Assembly (NCBI GenBank): GCA_038109085.1
Contig: JAYNIL010000006.1
Span: 1-48,833, forward strand
Source: Chloroflexota bacterium
GTDB taxonomy: Bacteria > Chloroflexota > Dehalococcoidia > Lucifugimonadales > Australimonadaceae
DNA length: 48,833 bases
Direction: 5' to 3'
A program made the position numbers and the translations under genes. The notes beneath the pieces were generated by a model, which ran no database searches, was not told the origin of the DNA, and was given only the letters and a program-made list of their open reading frames with translations. Shown piece after piece: positions 7,538 through 46,011 of this stretch (the first letter of the stretch is position 1; each line of letters starts with the position of its first letter).

Positions 7538-8002
7538 TCAGGCCAGTCCGCGCTCCACCAGCAGGAGCAGGACGTCGGAGAGCAGGAAGATCGCCAGGCC
7601 CAGCACCAGCGTCATATGCACGTGGCCCAGGGCGTTTACCGCCATGCGCAGCCGCCCCTTCGGTACCTCGGAGCCGGAGCGTCCGCTCCTGCCCACCACC
7701 AGGAAGAACATCCAGGCTGAGAGGGCTATCTTGGCGCCCAGCACGGCCCCGTACGCTGCGGTGGAGGTGGACTCGGACAGCCGGCTGACGGCCAGAATGC
7801 CCCCGGTTATCGCGAGGGTCCACATGGACATGCCCACCAATTGGCCGAACTCGGCCCCCGCGAAGCGCGCCAGGGCAGGGGGGGCGATGTTCGCTCGCAC
7901 GGCTGGACGCACCACCACCCAGTAGAAGATGCCGCCGCCCACCCACGCAACGGCGGCAACCGCGTGAAGCCAGCGGATCAGGAGGAGCAGGGCGTCGGTC
8001 AT
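7538..8002 (-). CDS. CopD/DUF4149-like four-helix membrane protein
   Basis: RWLHAVAAVAWVGG, ITG, YG..L..K motifs; four hydrophobic helices. Confidence 0.75.
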   Translation of the reverse strand: MTDALLLLIRWLHAVAAVAWVGGGIFYWVVVRPAVRANIAPPALARFAGAEFGQLVGMSMWTLAITGGILAVSRLSESTSTAAYGAVLGAKIALSAWMFFLVVGRSGRSGSEVPKGRLRMAVNALGHVHMTLVLGLAIFLLSDVLLLLVERGLA

Positions 8003-8167
8003 GGGGAGATGCTAGCGCACGGGGGACTTCCCCGCGACCTCCGGTCGCTCGATGGAGGGGGGGCGCTCATGGCAGCGGGCAACCGCCAGCACCGTGCAGA
8101 ACAGGGCGATTCGCGGGTACAATCGCCGCGACCACCCCGGGTTCGCCCGGTGAGCGCGAGGTGAGCC

Positions 8168-8518
8168 ATGGCAGCGACGGTGAAGTTCTACTGGTACCCC
8201 AAGTGAACCACTTGCCAGAAGGCGAGGGCGTGGCTCTCGCAGGAGGCGGTGCCCTTTGAGGAGCGTGACTACTTCAAGCAGCCCTTCAGTCGTGATGAGC
8301 TAGTGCTGCTGCTGGATGGGGCATCGCCCCGAACGGTGCTCAACGCGAAGTCGGTGGCCTTCAAGAAGTCCGGGCTGAACGCGGACGAGCTACCGGACGA
8401 GCGCATCCTGGAGCTGCTGCTGGAGGAGCCGCGCTACTTCAAGCGCCCGCTGGTGGTGGCCGACGGAAGGCTGCTGGTGGGCCTCAACGCCCAGAAGCTG
8501 GCCGAGGCTCTAGATTAG
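8168..8518 (+). CDS. ArsC/Spx-family thioredoxin-fold protein with UxxC motif (probable selenoprotein; TGA at 8204-8206)
   Basis: GAGGTG RBS, then MAATVKFYWYPK-TGA-TTCQKARAWL continuing in frame into the track ORF 8249-8518 (...EPRYFKRPLVVADGRLLVG). The TGA sits at the first Cys of the family CxxC. Confidence 0.85.
8207..8250 (+). promoter_or_regulatory. bacterial SECIS-like stem-loop
   Basis: GCGAGGGC-GTG-GCTCTCGC hairpin at 8222-8240 with a G-led apical loop 24 nt after the TGA; flanking ACC/GGT can extend the stem. Confidence 0.6.
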
Positions 8519-8572
8519 TTCTAACGTAAGTTGCGGGCTGGTGCGCCCGCCCATGCACATGGGGAGGGTCGG

Positions 8573-10321
8573 ATGCCCATCCGAGTCCTGCCGCCGGAGG
8601 TGGCCGCGGGGATCGCCGCTGGTGAGGTGATCGAGCGGCCCGCCTCGGTGGTGAAGGAGCTGGTGGACAACGCACTGGACGCCGGTGCGCGCTCCATCGC
8701 TGTGGAGCTGGAGCAGGGGGGCCTGGCTCGCATCCGGGTGTCCGACGACGGTTCCGGTATCCCCCCGGATGAGCTCCCGCTGGCCTTCACCCGCCACGCC
8801 ACCTCGAAGATCGCCTCGCTCACGGACCTGGACGCGCTGTCCACCATGGGGTTCCGGGGCGAGGCACTCGCCTCCATCGCCGCCACTGCGCGGGTGCGCC
8901 TCTCCTCGCGCCCCGCGGACGCTTCCGGCGCGGCCTACCTGGAGATGGCAGGCGTTAGCGCGGGGGCGTCGGGCACCGAACCCGCCGCTCCCGGAACCAC
9001 CGTCACCGTGGAATCGCTCTTCGCCTCGATACCGGCGCGCCTCAAGTTCCTGCGCTCCGTCCCCGCCGAGACCTCCCGGGTGCGGGCGGTGGTGCAGCGC
9101 GCCGCCATGGCCTTCCCCAGTGTGCGCCTGCGCCTGCGGGCCGACGGGCGCACGCTCTGCGAGAGCTCGGGCAACGGGGAACTGCGCGACGTGATGGCGG
9201 AGGTGTTCGACCCCCGGACCGCCGCCGCGCTGCTGGCCGTCGCCCCCTCGCCCCGCGCGCCATACGCGGCCCATGGGTTCGTCTCGCCCCCCTCGATGAG
9301 CCGCGCCAACCGCACGGGGATGCACCTGTTCGTCAACGGACGCGCGATATCGAGCCGCACCCTATCGGTTGCGGTGGAGGAGGCGTACCGTGGCTTATTG
9401 ATGGAGGGGCGTTACCCGCTCGCAGTACTGTTCCTCCAGGTGCCCCCCGCCGAGGTGGACGTGAACGTCCATCCCAACAAGCGCGAGGTCCGCTTCGTGC
9501 GCGACGCCGACGCCTTCTCCTCGGTGCAACGCGCTGTGCGCGAGACGCTGGTGGCCAGTGAGCCAGTGCCGGAGGCGCCGATGCTGCTGTCCGCGACAGC
9601 CGCGGCTGCCCCCGCGCCGGGGAGCATGTTCATGAGCGGCCTCACCGTCCCTGGCGCGTCCGGCCCGCTGCCGGAGCCCGGACCCGTTGGGATCGCCGAG
9701 CGTGCCGTGGTTTACGCACCCGCCCAGCCTAGTCAGCAGGCAGGCCTGCCACCGTTGCGGGTGCTGGGCCAGGTCGCGGGCGCCTACATAGCCGCCGAAG
9801 GGCCCGATGGGCTCTACCTGATAGACCAGCATGCCGCCCACGAGTCCGTGCTCTACTACCGCCTGCTGGCCGCCTGGGTGGGCGGACAGGGGCCCGCCGT
9901 GCAGCCGCTGCTGGAGCCGCTGCCCCTGGAACTGAGCCCCCAAGAACAGGAGGCCGCCGAGGACGCGCGGGAGGAGCTCGGCCGTTACGGCGTTTCCCTT
10001 GAGCCTTTCGGTCAAGAAGCGTGGCTCCTGCGCTCCCTCCCCGCGCTGGCGCGGCGCGTGGACCCGCGCCGCCTGGTGGCCGAGGCGTTGGAGGCGCACC
10101 AGCACCCCGGCTCCTACCCGGCGACGCATCAGGCGGTGGCCGCGTCCATCGCCTGCCACAGCGCAGTTCGCGCGGGTCAGGTGCTCAGCGCCGAGGAGAT
10201 GGAGGCCCTAGGCCGTGCGCTTGTGGAGGAGGCCAACCCCCAGCACTGCCCCCACGGGCGGCCCACCACGTTGCGCGTCTCCACGGTGGCGCTGGCCCGC
10301 GAATTCGGGAGGACGGGATGA
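8573..10321 (+). CDS. mutL: DNA mismatch repair endonuclease MutL
   Basis: IAAGEVIERPASVVKEL, GFRGEAL, VDVNVHP, DQHAAHE, CPHGRP. Confidence 0.97.
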   Translation: MPIRVLPPEVAAGIAAGEVIERPASVVKELVDNALDAGARSIAVELEQGGLARIRVSDDGSGIPPDELPLAFTRHATSKIASLTDLDALSTMGFRGEALASIAATARVRLSSRPADASGAAYLEMAGVSAGASGTEPAAPGTTVTVESLFASIPARLKFLRSVPAETSRVRAVVQRAAMAFPSVRLRLRADGRTLCESSGNGELRDVMAEVFDPRTAAALLAVAPSPRAPYAAHGFVSPPSMSRANRTGMHLFVNGRAISSRTLSVAVEEAYRGLLMEGRYPLAVLFLQVPPAEVDVNVHPNKREVRFVRDADAFSSVQRAVRETLVASEPVPEAPMLLSATAAAAPAPGSMFMSGLTVPGASGPLPEPGPVGIAERAVVYAPAQPSQQAGLPPLRVLGQVAGAYIAAEGPDGLYLIDQHAAHESVLYYRLLAAWVGGQGPAVQPLLEPLPLELSPQEQEAAEDAREELGRYGVSLEPFGQEAWLLRSLPALARRVDPRRLVAEALEAHQHPGSYPATHQAVAASIACHSAVRAGQVLSAEEMEALGRALVEEANPQHCPHGRPTTLRVSTVALAREFGRTG

Positions 10322-42205: not shown

Positions 42206-43132
42206 GTGCCCGCCACGCGAGCTCCCGCCGTCTTCATCGTGGGGCCCACGGCCTCCGGCAAGACTGCGGCGGCCATCGCCCTGGCCGGTGGGCTGGCGGG
42301 TCATCCCCCCGCAGAAGCGGTTAACGCAGACTCGCGTCAAGTCTACCGGGGCATGTCCATCGGCACGGCCAAGCCCACCGCCGCGGAGCAGGCTGGGCTG
42401 CGTCACCATTTGGTGGACATCACCGACCCTCAGGACGGCTTTTCCCTGGCCGCGTTCCTCGATGCGGCACGGGAGGCTATCGCTGATGTGCAGGGAAGGG
42501 GGGCGCTCCCCATCGTGGTGGGTGGCACCGGCCAGTACGTGTGGGGGCTGGCCGAGGGGTGGCAGGTACCGCGTGTGCCGCCCGACCCAGTACTGCGCGC
42601 CCGGCTTGAGACAGAGGGTCCGGCGGCGCTGCACGCGCGCCTAGCTCAGGTGGACCCCGAAGCGGCCGCAGCCATCGGCCCCCGCAACACCCGGCGCCTG
42701 GTGCGGGCACTGGAGGTGTGGGAGGCCACGGGCGAGCCCTTCTCCGGCCAGCGCCAGCGGGCCGAGCCGACCTTCGAGCCGCTGCTCTACGGCCTGCGCA
42801 TGCCCCGCGAGACCCTCTACAGGCGCATCGACGGGCGGGTGGATGCCATGCTGGCTGCGGGCTGGCCCGCCGAGGTGCGCGCGCTGCTCGATGCGGGCTG
42901 CAGGCCGGACCATCCTGCCTTCTCCAGCGCGGGGTACCGGGATTTGGCAGCGTATCTTTTGGGTCAGAAAAGCCTTGATGAGGCAGCCCACAAGGCGAAA
43001 GTCGCCACGCACCGGCTGGCGCGCTCCCAGGACGGCTGGTTCCGGGCGGACGACCCGCGTATCAGCTGGTGCGACGGGCAGCAGGCTCTGGTGGAGTCGG
43101 CTGCAAAGGCGGTTTGGGCGCGGCTCACTTGA
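42206..43132 (+). CDS. miaA: tRNA dimethylallyltransferase
   Basis: GPTASGKT, ADSRQVYRGMSIGTAKP, VGGTGQY, RLVRALEV. Confidence 0.96.
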   Translation: MPATRAPAVFIVGPTASGKTAAAIALAGGLAGHPPAEAVNADSRQVYRGMSIGTAKPTAAEQAGLRHHLVDITDPQDGFSLAAFLDAAREAIADVQGRGALPIVVGGTGQYVWGLAEGWQVPRVPPDPVLRARLETEGPAALHARLAQVDPEAAAAIGPRNTRRLVRALEVWEATGEPFSGQRQRAEPTFEPLLYGLRMPRETLYRRIDGRVDAMLAAGWPAEVRALLDAGCRPDHPAFSSAGYRDLAAYLLGQKSLDEAAHKAKVATHRLARSQDGWFRADDPRISWCDGQQALVESAAKAVWARLT

Positions 43133-43200
43133 CGCCAGAGGGCCGCTCAGGCACTCTTTTGCGAACCCCGCGTACGCGAGAAAAATCGAGGCAGGTGAAC

Positions 43201-43857
43201 ATGGATCCCATCGTTGAGGCATTCTCCAAGCTGGGCACGACGCCCGTGTCCGACGCCCTCGACCGGCTCGGCCTGGTCGGGCAGGTGCTGGGCATCAAGC
43301 CCATCGACCGCAAGTTCCGTCTGTGCGGACGCGCTTTCACGGTGCGCACCGAGCCCGTGACCGCCGGCACCAAGGGCGCCAGCGTGGGCGACTACATCGA
43401 CGACATCCCAGAGGGCGGCATCGTGGTGCTGGACAACGGCGGCGCACTGGACGCCACCGTGTGGGGCGACATCCTGACCATCATGGCCTCCCGCAACAAG
43501 CTGGGCGGCACCGTTATCCACGGCGTATGCCGCGACTCCGACCGGTCCCTGGAGCTGGGCTACCCCATCTTCGCCCGCGACACCTACATGCGCACGGGCA
43601 AGGACCGGGTGAAGGCCGAGGAGTACAACGGCCCCGTCTCCCTGGGCGAGGTGCGTGTGACCCCCGGCGACATCCTGCTGGGTGACGGCGACGGCATCGT
43701 GGTGGTCTCCAAGGAGCACGAGGAGCAGGTGCTCAAGACCGCCCAGGACATCGACGCCATCGAGGAACAGATCCGCAACGAGATCCAGAAGGGCGGGCGC
43801 CTGGATGAGGCCCGCAAGAAGTTCCGCTACTTCTCCCTCCAGTCCCGCGAGAAGTAG
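43201..43857 (+). CDS. RraA-family protein, probable HMG/CHA aldolase (LigK/GalC role)
   Basis: VSDALD, GRAFTV, VWGDIL, GVCRD, GDILLGDGDGIVV; sits directly upstream of ligU-ligI. Confidence 0.75.
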   Translation: MDPIVEAFSKLGTTPVSDALDRLGLVGQVLGIKPIDRKFRLCGRAFTVRTEPVTAGTKGASVGDYIDDIPEGGIVVLDNGGALDATVWGDILTIMASRNKLGGTVIHGVCRDSDRSLELGYPIFARDTYMRTGKDRVKAEEYNGPVSLGEVRVTPGDILLGDGDGIVVVSKEHEEQVLKTAQDIDAIEEQIRNEIQKGGRLDEARKKFRYFSLQSREK

Positions 43858-43877
43858 ACCCACCTGCCAGAGCGAGA

Positions 43878-43910
43878 GAACGGGGCGCCACACGGCGCCC
43901 CGTTCCGTTT
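43878..43910 (+). terminator. intrinsic terminator-like hairpin
   Basis: GAACGGGGCGCC-ACAC-GGCGCCCCGTTC followed by CGTTT. Confidence 0.65.
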
Positions 43911-43930
43911 ACCCGGCGGCCCTCCTGCCC

Positions 43931-43959
43931 TTGACCCCCCACGGGGGGCGGGGTAGCGT
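43931..43959 (+). promoter_or_regulatory. sigma70-type promoter candidate for ligU-ligI
   Basis: TTGACC-17 bp-TAGCGT; a CCCCCC-AC-GGGGGG dyad overlaps the -35 box and spacer. Confidence 0.5.
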
Positions 43960-44011
43960 TCCCCTCACCAGCGGGGCATCCCGCCATCGAGCCATCACGG
44001 AGGCATCCTCC

Positions 44012-45124
44012 ATGCAGACGAACATCCCTTGTGTCCTTATGCGGGGCGGCACGTCCAAGGGCCCCTTCTTCCTGGCCAAGGACCTGCCCACAGACCCCGA
44101 CCTGCGCGATAGGGTGCTTCTAGCCCTCATGGGCTCGCCCGACGTGCGCCAGATCGACGGCCTTGGCGGGGCCGACCCGCTCACGTCGAAAGTGGCCGTG
44201 GTGAGCGCCCCCTCCACGCGTGAGGACTGCGACGTGGACTACCTGTTCCTCCAGGTGGTGCCCGACAAGCCGGTGGTGGACCTGACCCAGAACTGCGGCA
44301 ACATGCTGGCGGGCGTGGGGCCCTTCGCCATCGAGCATGGGCTCATTCCGGCGCAGGACGGCGAGACGCCCGTGCGCATCCACATGGTCAACTCCGGTGA
44401 CAAGGCCGTCGCCCGCATCCCCACTCCCGGCGGCGAGGTGGAGTACGGGGGCGACGCGCGCATCGACGGAGTGCCCGGTACCGCCGCCCCCATCTTCATC
44501 GACGTTGAGGAGACGGCGGGGAGCATCTGCGGGGCGCTCCTGCCCACGGGCAATCTGATGGACGTCATCGACGGCATCGAGTGCACGCTGATGGACAACG
44601 GCATGCCGGTGGTCGCCATGCGCGCCGAGGACCTGGGCCGCAGCGGCTACGAGACGCGCGATGAGCTCAACGCCGACGAGGAGCTCAAGAAGCGCATCGA
44701 GTCCATACGTCTCAAGGCCGGGCCGATGATGAACCTGGGGGACGTCACCGATAAGGTCGTGCCCAAGATGTTCCTGCTGGCCAAGCCCAAGGCGGGAGGG
44801 GCCATCTCCACCCGCTCGTACATTCCCAAGGTGGCCCACGCGTCCATCGGAGTGCTGGCGGCGGTCACCGTGGCCACCGCCGCCGTGATGCCGGGCACCA
44901 CGGCCTATGAGCTGGCGGTGCGCCCCGAAGGCTCGCGCAAGGTGCTGGAGCTGGAGCACCCCACGGGCTTCTTCACCGTGGAGATAGAGACCGAGGGCCC
45001 CGAGTCCTCCCTTCACATCAAGCGCTCGGCGCTGCTGCGCACCGCCCGGCGGATAATGGAGGGGCAGGTGAGCATCCCCGCTGAGGTCTGGGACGGCAAG
45101 AGCGCCCCGGCAGCCCGCGTCTAG
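44012..45124 (+). CDS. ligU: 4-oxalomesaconate tautomerase (PrpF family, LigU/GalD)
   Basis: MRGGTSKG, MGSPDVRQIDGLGGADPLTSKVA, QNCGNMLAGV, DNGMP, VPKM, EHPTG, RTAR. Confidence 0.9.
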   Translation: MQTNIPCVLMRGGTSKGPFFLAKDLPTDPDLRDRVLLALMGSPDVRQIDGLGGADPLTSKVAVVSAPSTREDCDVDYLFLQVVPDKPVVDLTQNCGNMLAGVGPFAIEHGLIPAQDGETPVRIHMVNSGDKAVARIPTPGGEVEYGGDARIDGVPGTAAPIFIDVEETAGSICGALLPTGNLMDVIDGIECTLMDNGMPVVAMRAEDLGRSGYETRDELNADEELKKRIESIRLKAGPMMNLGDVTDKVVPKMFLLAKPKAGGAISTRSYIPKVAHASIGVLAAVTVATAAVMPGTTAYELAVRPEGSRKVLELEHPTGFFTVEIETEGPESSLHIKRSALLRTARRIMEGQVSIPAEVWDGKSAPAARV

Positions 45125-45132
45125 GAGTAACG

Positions 45133-46011
45133 ATGACCGAGCGTGTGATTAAGACCATCCCCGGCCCGCACCCCAACCCCTCCAAGCCCCAGTTTGTGCT
45201 CCCGGCCAACGCCTGCGATGCCCACTGCCATGTCTTCGGGCCGGGCGCGCAGTTCCCTTACCACCCGAACCGGGCCTACACGCCACCAGATGCCTCCTGG
45301 CAGAAGTTGCGGGCCCTCCACGACCACCTCGGCATTGAGCGTGCGGTCATCGTCCACGCGTCCTGCCACGGCCCTTACATGGAGGCGACGCTGGACGCCA
45401 TCGCCCACTCCGGCGGTCTTTACAGAGGCACCTCAATTGTCGAGCCGGATATCTCCGACGCGGAGCTACGCCGCTACCACGAGGGTGGAATACGGGCCGT
45501 GCGATTCAACTTCGTGAAGCACCTGGAGTCGGTTCCCGACCCAGACGTAGTACGCCGTATGGCCGAGCGCATTGCGCCCATGGGCTGGCACCTGGTGGTG
45601 CACCTGGACGCCGTTGATATCGAGGAACTAGCCCCGCTGCTGTTGGGCCTCCCGGTGCCCTTTGTCATCGACCACATGGCCCGCGTGAAGGCGGGTGACG
45701 GGCTAGAGCAGGCGCCTTTCAAGACGCTTTTGCGCCTCATGGCCAACGAAAAGGCATGGGTGAAAATCTGCGGCGGGGAGCGCATCTCCTCCGACGGGCC
45801 CCCATTCCACGATGCGGTGCCTTTTGCCAAAGCCTTGCTCAAGGCCGCGCCAGACCGCGTGCTTTGGGGTACTGATTGGCCGCACCCTAATGTGCGGCAC
45901 ATGCCCGACGATGGCGGACTAGTGGATCTTCTGGGCCTCTACGCTCCCGACCAAGAAACCCTGAAAAAGCTAACTGTAGACAACCCCACTAGGCTTTACT
46001 GGTCGGACTAA
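45133..46011 (+). CDS. ligI: 2-pyrone-4,6-dicarboxylate lactonase
   Basis: ACDAHCHVFGP, YTPPDA, VRFNFVK, IDHM, DRVLWGTDWPHPN, MPDDG.LVD, VDNP.RLY. Confidence 0.88.
   Translation: MTERVIKTIPGPHPNPSKPQFVLPANACDAHCHVFGPGAQFPYHPNRAYTPPDASWQKLRALHDHLGIERAVIVHASCHGPYMEATLDAIAHSGGLYRGTSIVEPDISDAELRRYHEGGIRAVRFNFVKHLESVPDPDVVRRMAERIAPMGWHLVVHLDAVDIEELAPLLLGLPVPFVIDHMARVKAGDGLEQAPFKTLLRLMANEKAWVKICGGERISSDGPPFHDAVPFAKALLKAAPDRVLWGTDWPHPNVRHMPDDGGLVDLLGLYAPDQETLKKLTVDNPTRLYWSD

What the first reader, a model, noticed from the sequence alone, without database searches (positions are those of the whole stretch)
8168..8518. Hidden selenoprotein: ArsC/Spx-family protein with UxxC and a SECIS-like hairpin
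Seen: RBS + ATG 8168 gives FYWYPK-[TGA]-TTCQKARAWL, in frame with the downstream ArsC-like body, with a GC stem-loop at 8222-8240. Established: family members (YusI/Spx-like) read Y..PxCxTCxKA..WL, so the TGA replaces the redox Cys, and bacterial SECIS elements lie just 3' of the UGA. Inference: Sec is decoded, which implies selA/B/C/D elsewhere in the genome. Standard annotation would truncate this gene. Sec-containing ArsC-like proteins are known but uncommon.
Basis: partly seen in the sequence, partly recalled or inferred. Interest (0 to 1): 0.72.

Follow-up and report, generated by a model that had tools for sequence, protein, structure and literature searches.

The report
Spx/ArsC-fold selenoprotein gene beside mutL
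An apparent stop codon inside this small gene is kept in nearly all relatives and is very likely read as the rare amino acid selenocysteine, giving a predicted redox protein of a kind already catalogued in 2008 that gene callers still cut short.

Summary
Observation confirmed. ORF 8168-8518 has one in-frame TGA at codon 13 (U-T-T-C), aligned to the first Cys of the Spx CxxC. The genome has selA, selB, selD (itself with a TGA) and tRNA-Sec. TGA is kept at this codon in 47 of 48 orthologues. The one Cys form is in a genome where none of the four Sec genes was found. The 8222-8240 hairpin meets the bacterial SECIS model, and 5 of its 8 pairs show compensatory changes across 47 genes; alone it folds no better than shuffles in context. 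Sec decoding is inferred (~97%), not measured. The fold is ArsC/Spx. The Spx Gly52 loop and two of the three ArsC catalytic arginines are missing, so a selenol/thiol-disulfide oxidoreductase is the best guess; an Spx/YusI-like regulator is the main rival. Not new in kind: three similar sequences are in the 2008 GOS 'Arsenate reductase 2 (UxxC)' set, and this scan reported the family before on other DNA (e1-3174999).

The parts
8158..8163 (+). Shine-Dalgarno-like GAGGTG, 4 nt before the start codon
   Evidence: sequence
8168..8518 (+). CDS of a 116-aa ArsC/Spx-fold protein with predicted UxxC motif
8204..8206 (+). in-frame TGA, codon 13, inferred selenocysteine (aligns with Spx Cys10)
8213..8215 (+). 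Cys16, predicted resolving cysteine; Cys in 48 of 48 orthologues
8222..8240 (+). SECIS-like hairpin: 8-bp stem, loop GUG at 8230-8232; first loop base G in 47 of 47 TGA rows
8444..8449 (+). Arg93-Pro94 (RP motif shared by Spx, YusI and ArsC), invariant in 48 of 48
8573..10321 (+). mutL, downstream neighbour on the same strand in 31 of 31 loci examined
7538..8002 (-). divergent predicted membrane protein (weak CopD-like hit, below cut-off), upstream in 29 of 31 loci

Best explanation
The gene at 8168-8518 carries an in-frame UGA that is very likely decoded as selenocysteine, giving a 116-aa ArsC/Spx-fold protein predicted to work as a small selenol/thiol-disulfide oxidoreductase. Shown: the ORF, the conserved TGA, the covarying hairpin, the Sec genes and the predicted fold. 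Inferred, step 1 (about 0.97): SelB-GTP-Sec-tRNA(Sec) binds the G-first loop of the hairpin 23 nt downstream and delivers Sec to UGA13; otherwise RF2 would stop translation after 12 residues. Inferred, step 2 (about 0.55): Sec13 at the start of helix 1 is the attacking nucleophile and Cys16 resolves it to a selenenylsulfide, which cellular thiol systems re-reduce, so the protein cycles as a redox catalyst or relay. The substrate is not identified. The confidence given is for both steps together.
For: Sec machinery in G000, all over cut-off: selA 375 bits, selB 350 (8), selD 378 with its own TGA, tRNA-Sec 72 bits with anticodon TCA. TGA at the aligned codon in 47 of 48 orthologues from 47 genomes of the order plus one named Dehalococcoidia record, and in 20 of 21 further hits in a 200-genome phylum sample. 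The Cys form in G007 (93% complete) goes with no selA, selB or selD over cut-off, no clear tRNA-Sec and a decayed hairpin (-3.9 against -11.9 kcal/mol); it nests inside the TGA clade of the family (SH-aLRT 98, quick tree). Hairpin: 95.7% of cells paired, 5 of 8 pairs with two-sided changes, 0/500 shuffles reach the pairing or covariation score, slid controls 30-69%; RNAalifold finds 7 of the same pairs unprompted. Codons in the stem are frozen: Arg+7 is AGG/AGA in 30 of 30 TGA rows, against 3.4% of Arg codons in G000 genes and 41 of 244 elsewhere in the same genes. For the oxidoreductase reading: the thioredoxin-like ArsC fold (pLDDT 86.5; Z 16.2-14.1 to ArsC, Spx and YffB chains, rmsd 2.0-2.8 over 112-115 residues), an invariant Cys16, and the loss of the Spx- and ArsC-specific residues.
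Against: No protein, RNA or labelling data. The hairpin is not significant from one sequence. Covariation counts come from related genomes and overlap codons under protein constraint, so the shuffle control overstates them. G089 has a Cys form although it has selA, so Cys does not always follow loss of the machinery. Three TGA-bearing genomes (G011, G028, G031) gave no strong selA hit, though all three have selB and selD. On function, the best sequence matches among solved structures are Spx proteins (E 2e-20, against 1.5e-11 for YffB and 4e-7 for E. coli ArsC), the protein passes the broad Spx/MgsR model (78.4 against 75.05 bits), and the basic helix-4 region is kept (K/R at the Spx Arg60 position in 39 of 48).
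Confidence: 0.55

Rival explanations
1. Same Sec recoding, but the protein is a redox-sensing transcription regulator like Spx, or like the Gly52-less YusI/OseR group; the Se-S bond would be a switch, not a catalytic centre.
For: Spx is the top match by sequence and by Foldseek E-value. 28 of 48 members match TIGR01617 at E<=1e-15. CxxC-type and RP motifs are kept, as is the basic helix 4. OseR of C. difficile lacks Gly52 yet is reported to act as a repressor (PMC11481553, passages). The gene was single-copy in G000 and is syntenic across relatives.
Against: There is a two-residue deletion in the Spx loop that holds Gly52, and the aligned column is Gly in 2 of 48 (a nearby column is Gly in 26 of 48, so the alignment is not certain). 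The protein is 116 aa against 131-132 for Spx. It scores 73 bits against the Spx cut-off of 123 (12) and lies outside the Spx and YusI clades. The hosts' alphaCTD has Leu in 27 of 27 at the column where solved actinobacterial chains have Tyr (63, 98); that this column is B. subtilis Tyr263 is recalled, not shown by a call.
Confidence: 0.3
2. Same Sec recoding, and the protein is a true arsenate reductase of the E. coli R773 ArsC type.
For: PF03960 ArsC hit, 62.7 bits. The fold ties with ArsC structures. The literature label for this kind is 'arsenate reductase 2'. No gene over the TIGR00014 cut-off was found in the 61 genomes searched, so no classical ArsC fills the role.
Against: Of the Arg60/Arg94/Arg107 triad (PMC3169414, passages) only Arg94 has a counterpart: Arg in 0 of 48 at the Arg60 column and 0 of 48 at the Arg107 column (2 of 48 one column on), judged against ArsC-like proteins P0241 and P0268. 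HX3CX3R occurs in 5 of 48 and not in this protein. It scores 47.6 bits against a cut-off of 106. acr3 was found in 3 of 61 genomes and not in G000; no ArsB hit in G000; the neighbours are not ars genes.
Confidence: 0.08
3. The TGA is a nonsense mutation or a sequencing error, and the gene is broken or starts downstream at GTG 8249.
For: An 89-aa ORF from GTG 8249 exists and is what the databases hold (P0001).
Against: TGA sits at the same codon in 47 of 48 orthologues at 35-91% identity, with protein conservation on both sides of it. Contigs of four runs show no other letter there. The downstream start would drop strand 1 and the whole redox motif.
Confidence: 0.01
4. The organism reads UGA as Trp or Gly throughout (code 4 or 25).
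For: None beyond the in-frame TGA.
Against: prfB (RF2) is present, 478 bits. 5 of 13 correctly framed housekeeping ORFs of the window end in TGA and none has an internal TGA (two further rows were given on the wrong strand and dropped). tRNA-Trp has anticodon CCA, and the only TCA tRNA called is tRNA-Sec. The non-TGA orthologues have Cys, not Trp or Gly.
Confidence: 0.01

Closest known systems
GOS 'Arsenate reductase 2' selenoproteins (UxxC, cd03032; Zhang & Gladyshev 2008, PMC2398784)
   Same: Sec at the first position of CxxC in an ArsC/Spx-fold protein. By eye, three sequences in that section of supplementary file 3 (JCVI_READ_1318105, 1121231, 1095390070075) share this family's motifs: UxTC, ERD[FI]F, RSP, EPRLI[RK]RP.
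   Different: Most sequences of that GOS set are of another subtype, with an [RK]AP motif in place of EPRxxxRP. The comparison was by eye; no alignment score was computed.
NCBIfam NF041106 ArsC_rel_Se_1, 'ArsC family (seleno)protein'
   Same: UxxC, same superfamily; listed as 'arsenate reductase-like protein' in the 2026 review (PMC13188914).
   Different: Scores 31.3 bits against a cut-off of 85, so this model does not capture the gene.
Bacillus subtilis Spx (PDB 1z3e, 3gfk, 7f75)
   Same: Best sequence match (E 2e-20, 33% identity), same fold (Z 15.9, rmsd 2.2 over 113 residues), CxxC and RP motifs.
   Different: Sec in place of Cys10, deletion at the Gly52 loop, shorter C-terminus, separate clade, Chloroflexota host.
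YusI/OseR subfamily of Spx-like proteins
   Same: Near-identical N-terminal motif FYWYPKCxTC, similar length, no Gly52.
   Different: Forms its own clade (SH-aLRT 99) without this family; uses Cys; 27-38% identity.
E. coli R773 ArsC and YffB
   Same: Same fold (Z 14.1-14.2 and 15.7) and the Arg94-equivalent RP motif.
   Different: No Arg60 or Arg107 counterpart, a second Cys in the motif, no ars operon context.

Membership tests
Bacterial selenoprotein gene | In-frame UGA aligned with a conserved Cys of homologues | tested here: met
Bacterial selenoprotein gene | selA, selB, selC, selD in the same genome | tested here: met
   all over cut-off
Bacterial selenoprotein gene | bSECIS model: 3-9 nt loop, 4-16 bp stem, G in the first two loop positions, 16-37 nt from UGA, MFE <= -7.5 kcal/mol (PMC13188914) | tested here: met
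   3-nt loop GUG, 8 bp, 23 nt, -11.9 kcal/mol; loop starts GU or GG in 47 of 47 (98); covariation. bSECISearch itself was not run.
Bacterial selenoprotein gene | Selenium detected in the protein | not testable with these tools
   needs 75Se labelling or mass spectrometry
ArsC/Spx superfamily (PF03960, TIGR01617) | Score over curated cut-off and fold | tested here: met
   PF03960 62.7/24 bits; TIGR01617 78.4/75.05 bits; fold
Canonical Spx | Score over the Spx cut-off (NF002459) | tested here: not met
   73.3 against 123 bits
Canonical Spx | Gly52 for alphaCTD contact (PMC2801614) | tested here: not met
   two-residue deletion; Gly in 2 of 48 at the aligned column; local alignment somewhat uncertain
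Canonical Spx | Redox motif and RP motif | tested here: met
   UxxC; Arg93-Pro94 in 48 of 48
Canonical Spx | Binds RNA polymerase alphaCTD | not tested
R773-type arsenate reductase ArsC | HX3CX3R motif and Arg60/Arg94/Arg107 triad (PMC3169414) | tested here: not met
   motif in 5 of 48 and not in this protein; only the Arg94 counterpart is present
R773-type arsenate reductase ArsC | Score over TIGR00014 cut-off; arsenite pump in context | tested here: not met
   47.6 against 106 bits; acr3 and arsB not found in G000
NF041106 ArsC_rel_Se_1 | Score over cut-off | tested here: not met
   31.3 against 85 bits
GOS 'Arsenate reductase 2' (UxxC, cd03032-like) | UxxC in an ArsC/Spx-like protein; similarity to listed members | tested here: met
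   motif-level match by eye to 3 listed sequences; no alignment score computed

The most novel reading that the evidence does not exclude
This is a selenocysteine-based redox switch: an Spx/YusI-like transcription regulator of Chloroflexota whose Se-S bond senses oxidation, and whose read-through would tie mutL expression to selenium supply. mutL follows it in 31 of 31 loci, and in 4 of them the mutL start lies at the stop codon. No paper describing a Sec-containing Spx-type regulator appeared in the listings of searches.
Probability: 0.15. Interest if true: 0.75.

Novelty: new member of a known kind. Interest (0 to 1): 0.3.

Why it matters
It corrects an annotation error repeated across a lineage: the 11 closest database proteins are 71-98-aa fragments covering 59-82% of the query, and none of the 269 stored proteins carries U. 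It gives a clean natural case of Sec-to-Cys change with loss of the Sec machinery and decay of the SECIS (G007), and a well-aligned, covarying bacterial SECIS. No Sec-specific NCBIfam model captures this subfamily. If the protein proved to be a transcription regulator, that would be a notable use of selenocysteine as a signalling switch.

Tried and rejected
Single-sequence folding of the region was not significant. The sequencing-run search listed no RNA holder, which says nothing on expression. The promoter/terminator scan of 7950-8700 found no site. The first neighbourhood clustering merged shadow ORFs and was uninformative; it was redone by tblastn. The careful tree did not finish; only the quick tree is used, with 56 of 114 inner branches unresolved. 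Rows left out of the 48-row alignment: G020 (partial match, residues 76-114); second or weak hits in G047, G048 and G046 (L122 and L124 are glutaredoxin-like, L123 gave no alignment); 12 of 61 genomes had no hit. In one search, purC and purB were given on the wrong strand and dropped. The plasmid search gave only distant Spx/ArsC-family hits. Literature searches gave no paper on this family in their listings; deep-Sep (PMC12013277) has none of the five terms searched in its main text. The BSepDB database itself and the accession numbers in the review tables could not be checked and may already hold this family.

Full report
Observation. The sequence shows GAGGTG at 8158-8163, ATG at 8168, TGA at 8204-8206 in frame as codon 13, and TAG at 8516-8518. 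Read with TGA=U, the product is 116 aa with U13-T-T-C16. Table-11 ORF calling gives only an 89-aa ORF from GTG 8249. In context it is not more stable than shuffles (z -0.3 to -1.4 over five windows), and an alternative pairing wins in the 60- and 100-nt folds. A similar hairpin follows 245 of 6385 open-frame TGA codons genome-wide. Contigs from four DNA runs of one study list no other letter at the TGA or in the hairpin.

Host and machinery. The genome G000 is 1.74 Mb, 69% GC, 96.7% complete. The closest named record (90% identity) is titled Candidatus Australimonas brisbanensis, which NCBI places in Chloroflexota, Dehalococcoidia. G000 has selA, selB, selD and tRNA-Sec over their cut-offs; selD itself has one in-frame TGA. 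UGA is otherwise a stop: RF2 is present, and 5 of 13 correctly framed housekeeping ORFs end in TGA with none internal. At least four more candidate selenoprotein genes (Prx-like, PrdB-like, two DsbA-like; names from motif recall, not from a family search) and selD have a hairpin at a similar distance.

Conservation of the TGA. 49 of 61 genomes of the order had a hit, 47 of them full length. With one named Dehalococcoidia record these give 48 orthologues at 35-91% identity: 47 have TGA at the aligned codon and one, G007, has TGC. G007 (93% complete) gave no selA, no selB over cut-off, no selD, and only a borderline tRNA-Sec hit (48.8 bits, the level of tRNA-Ser hits in G000). Its hairpin has decayed, and it nests in the TGA clade of the family, so this looks like a Sec-to-Cys change with loss of the machinery. 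43 of the 46 TGA-bearing genomes have a strong selA hit; the other three have selB and selD. In a 200-genome phylum sample, 21 more genomes had a hit at E<=1e-15, 20 with TGA and one (G089) with TGC. All 12 of those 21 that were tested have selA, including G089, so Cys forms also occur beside the machinery. These genomes are kin, not independent samples.

The SECIS. Across 47 TGA rows (46 distinct) the 8-bp stem is paired in 95.7% of cells, 5 of 8 pairs show two-sided changes (25 cells), no shuffle of 500 reaches the pairing or covariation score, and slid controls give 30-69%. RNAalifold finds 7 of the 8 pairs by itself. The first loop base is G in 47 of 47 and the second is U or G in 47 of 47. 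In the 30 TGA rows first examined, the Arg in the 5' arm is always AGG/AGA (3.4% of Arg codons in G000 genes; 41 of 244 elsewhere in the same genes), Ala is GCG 28/28, Leu CTC 29/30 and Ser TCG 29/29, while G007 uses CGG and CTG. Third-position entropy is 0.68 bits inside the hairpin and 1.47 outside. All four constraints of the published bSECIS model are met (PMC13188914, passages). In more distant phylum members the hairpin shifts in register.

The protein. It passes PF03960 and, narrowly, TIGR01617, but not the Spx, ArsC or NF041106 cut-offs. The AlphaFold model (pLDDT 86.5, Sec as Cys) ties between ArsC-family, Spx and YffB structures (Z 16.2-15.4, rmsd 2.0-2.4, 112-115 residues); by sequence Spx is closest. 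In a quick tree of 117 rows, canonical Spx and YusI (99) form their own clades, and the window's family-level clade (98) lies outside both; deeper forks are unresolved. Spx contacts alphaCTD through Gly52 and Tyr263 (PMC2801614, passages). Here that loop is two residues shorter with Gly in 2 of 48 at the aligned column, and the hosts' alphaCTD has Leu in 27 of 27 at the column where solved actinobacterial chains have Tyr (the identity of that column with B. subtilis Tyr263 is recalled). ArsC needs HX3CX3R and three arginines (PMC3169414, passages); only the Arg94 counterpart is kept. acr3 was found in 3 of 61 genomes and not in G000, and no ArsB hit was found in G000. Binding to alphaCTD could not be modelled and is untested.

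Context. mutL follows on the same strand in 31 of 31 loci, 54 nt downstream here and at the stop codon in four; a divergent predicted membrane gene precedes it in 29 of 31. This supports orthology; a functional link to mismatch repair is not shown.

Mechanism. Most likely SelB, bound to the in-frame hairpin, inserts Sec at UGA13 (about 0.97, inferred). The product would be a small thioredoxin-fold protein with Sec13 as nucleophile and Cys16 as resolving residue, acting as a selenol/thiol-disulfide oxidoreductase or redox relay (0.55 overall). The rival is a redox-sensing regulator of the YusI/OseR kind, which also lacks Gly52 (PMC11481553, passages), at 0.3. Arsenate reductase 0.08; broken gene or alternative code about 0.01 each.

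Prior knowledge. The 2008 GOS survey lists 42 'Arsenate reductase 2' UxxC selenoproteins assigned to cd03032 (PMC2398784, passages). Part 8 of 59 of its supplementary file 3 holds that section, and three of its sequences share this family's motifs by eye, while most are of another subtype. The 2022 and 2026 reviews list an 'arsenate reductase-like protein, UxxC' (PMC9312934, PMC13188914, passages). BSepDB names Dehalococcoidia among selenoprotein-rich genomes (PMC13326102, passages). An earlier agent of this scan reached the same reading on another genome (e1-3174999); I had found the GOS match before looking. Database gene calls remain truncated.

Verdict. A real and well-supported selenoprotein gene, a new member of a known kind, with function untested. 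Interest 0.3.

Noticed in passing
G000 C51:5401(+), C12:5473(-), C13:35376(-), C24:1794(+), C43:3961(-): Other in-frame TGA genes with a downstream hairpin: selD, a Prx/AhpC-like UxxC gene, a PrdB-like UxxC gene and two DsbA-like genes (names of the last four from motif recall). selD and the Prx-like gene have the same 3-nt, G-first loop.
   Followed up: partly
L122 (G047:C1:2548300-2549300): A second, glutaredoxin-like UxxC gene in G047 with a hairpin of the same register and a longer C-terminal part.
   Followed up: no
L162 (G089): Cys form of the protein without the hairpin in a genome that has selA; several full-length Cys forms among the representative proteins group with it in the tree.
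   Followed up: partly
L026, L033, L037, L041: The mutL match starts 317 nt after the Sec codon, at the gene's TGA stop, suggesting translational coupling in one genus.
   Followed up: no
window:6459-7946(-) and window:34777-36093(+): By their motifs (recalled, no family search) these ORFs look like the ergothioneine genes egtD and egtB, far apart in the window; the first lies upstream of the divergent membrane gene in 8 related loci.
   Followed up: no
window:8573-12077: mutL is followed by a short ITPase/Ham1-like ORF and a convergent mutY-like gene (labels from motif recall), a small DNA-repair cluster.
   Followed up: no
window:12890-19143 and 43069-46011: Clusters of ORFs resembling aromatic-ring degradation genes (amidohydrolase, extradiol dioxygenase, Rieske oxygenase, cupin, PrpF-like, lactonase-like); labels from motif recall.
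   Followed up: no
window:1-1550: The first ORFs look more AT-rich than the rest and include a B12-binding-domain protein with a C-terminal HTH (644-1534, label from recall); a possible island edge.
   Followed up: no
G000 whole genome: ARAGORN found 45 tRNA genes but no tRNA-Phe, despite 96.7% marker completeness.
   Followed up: no
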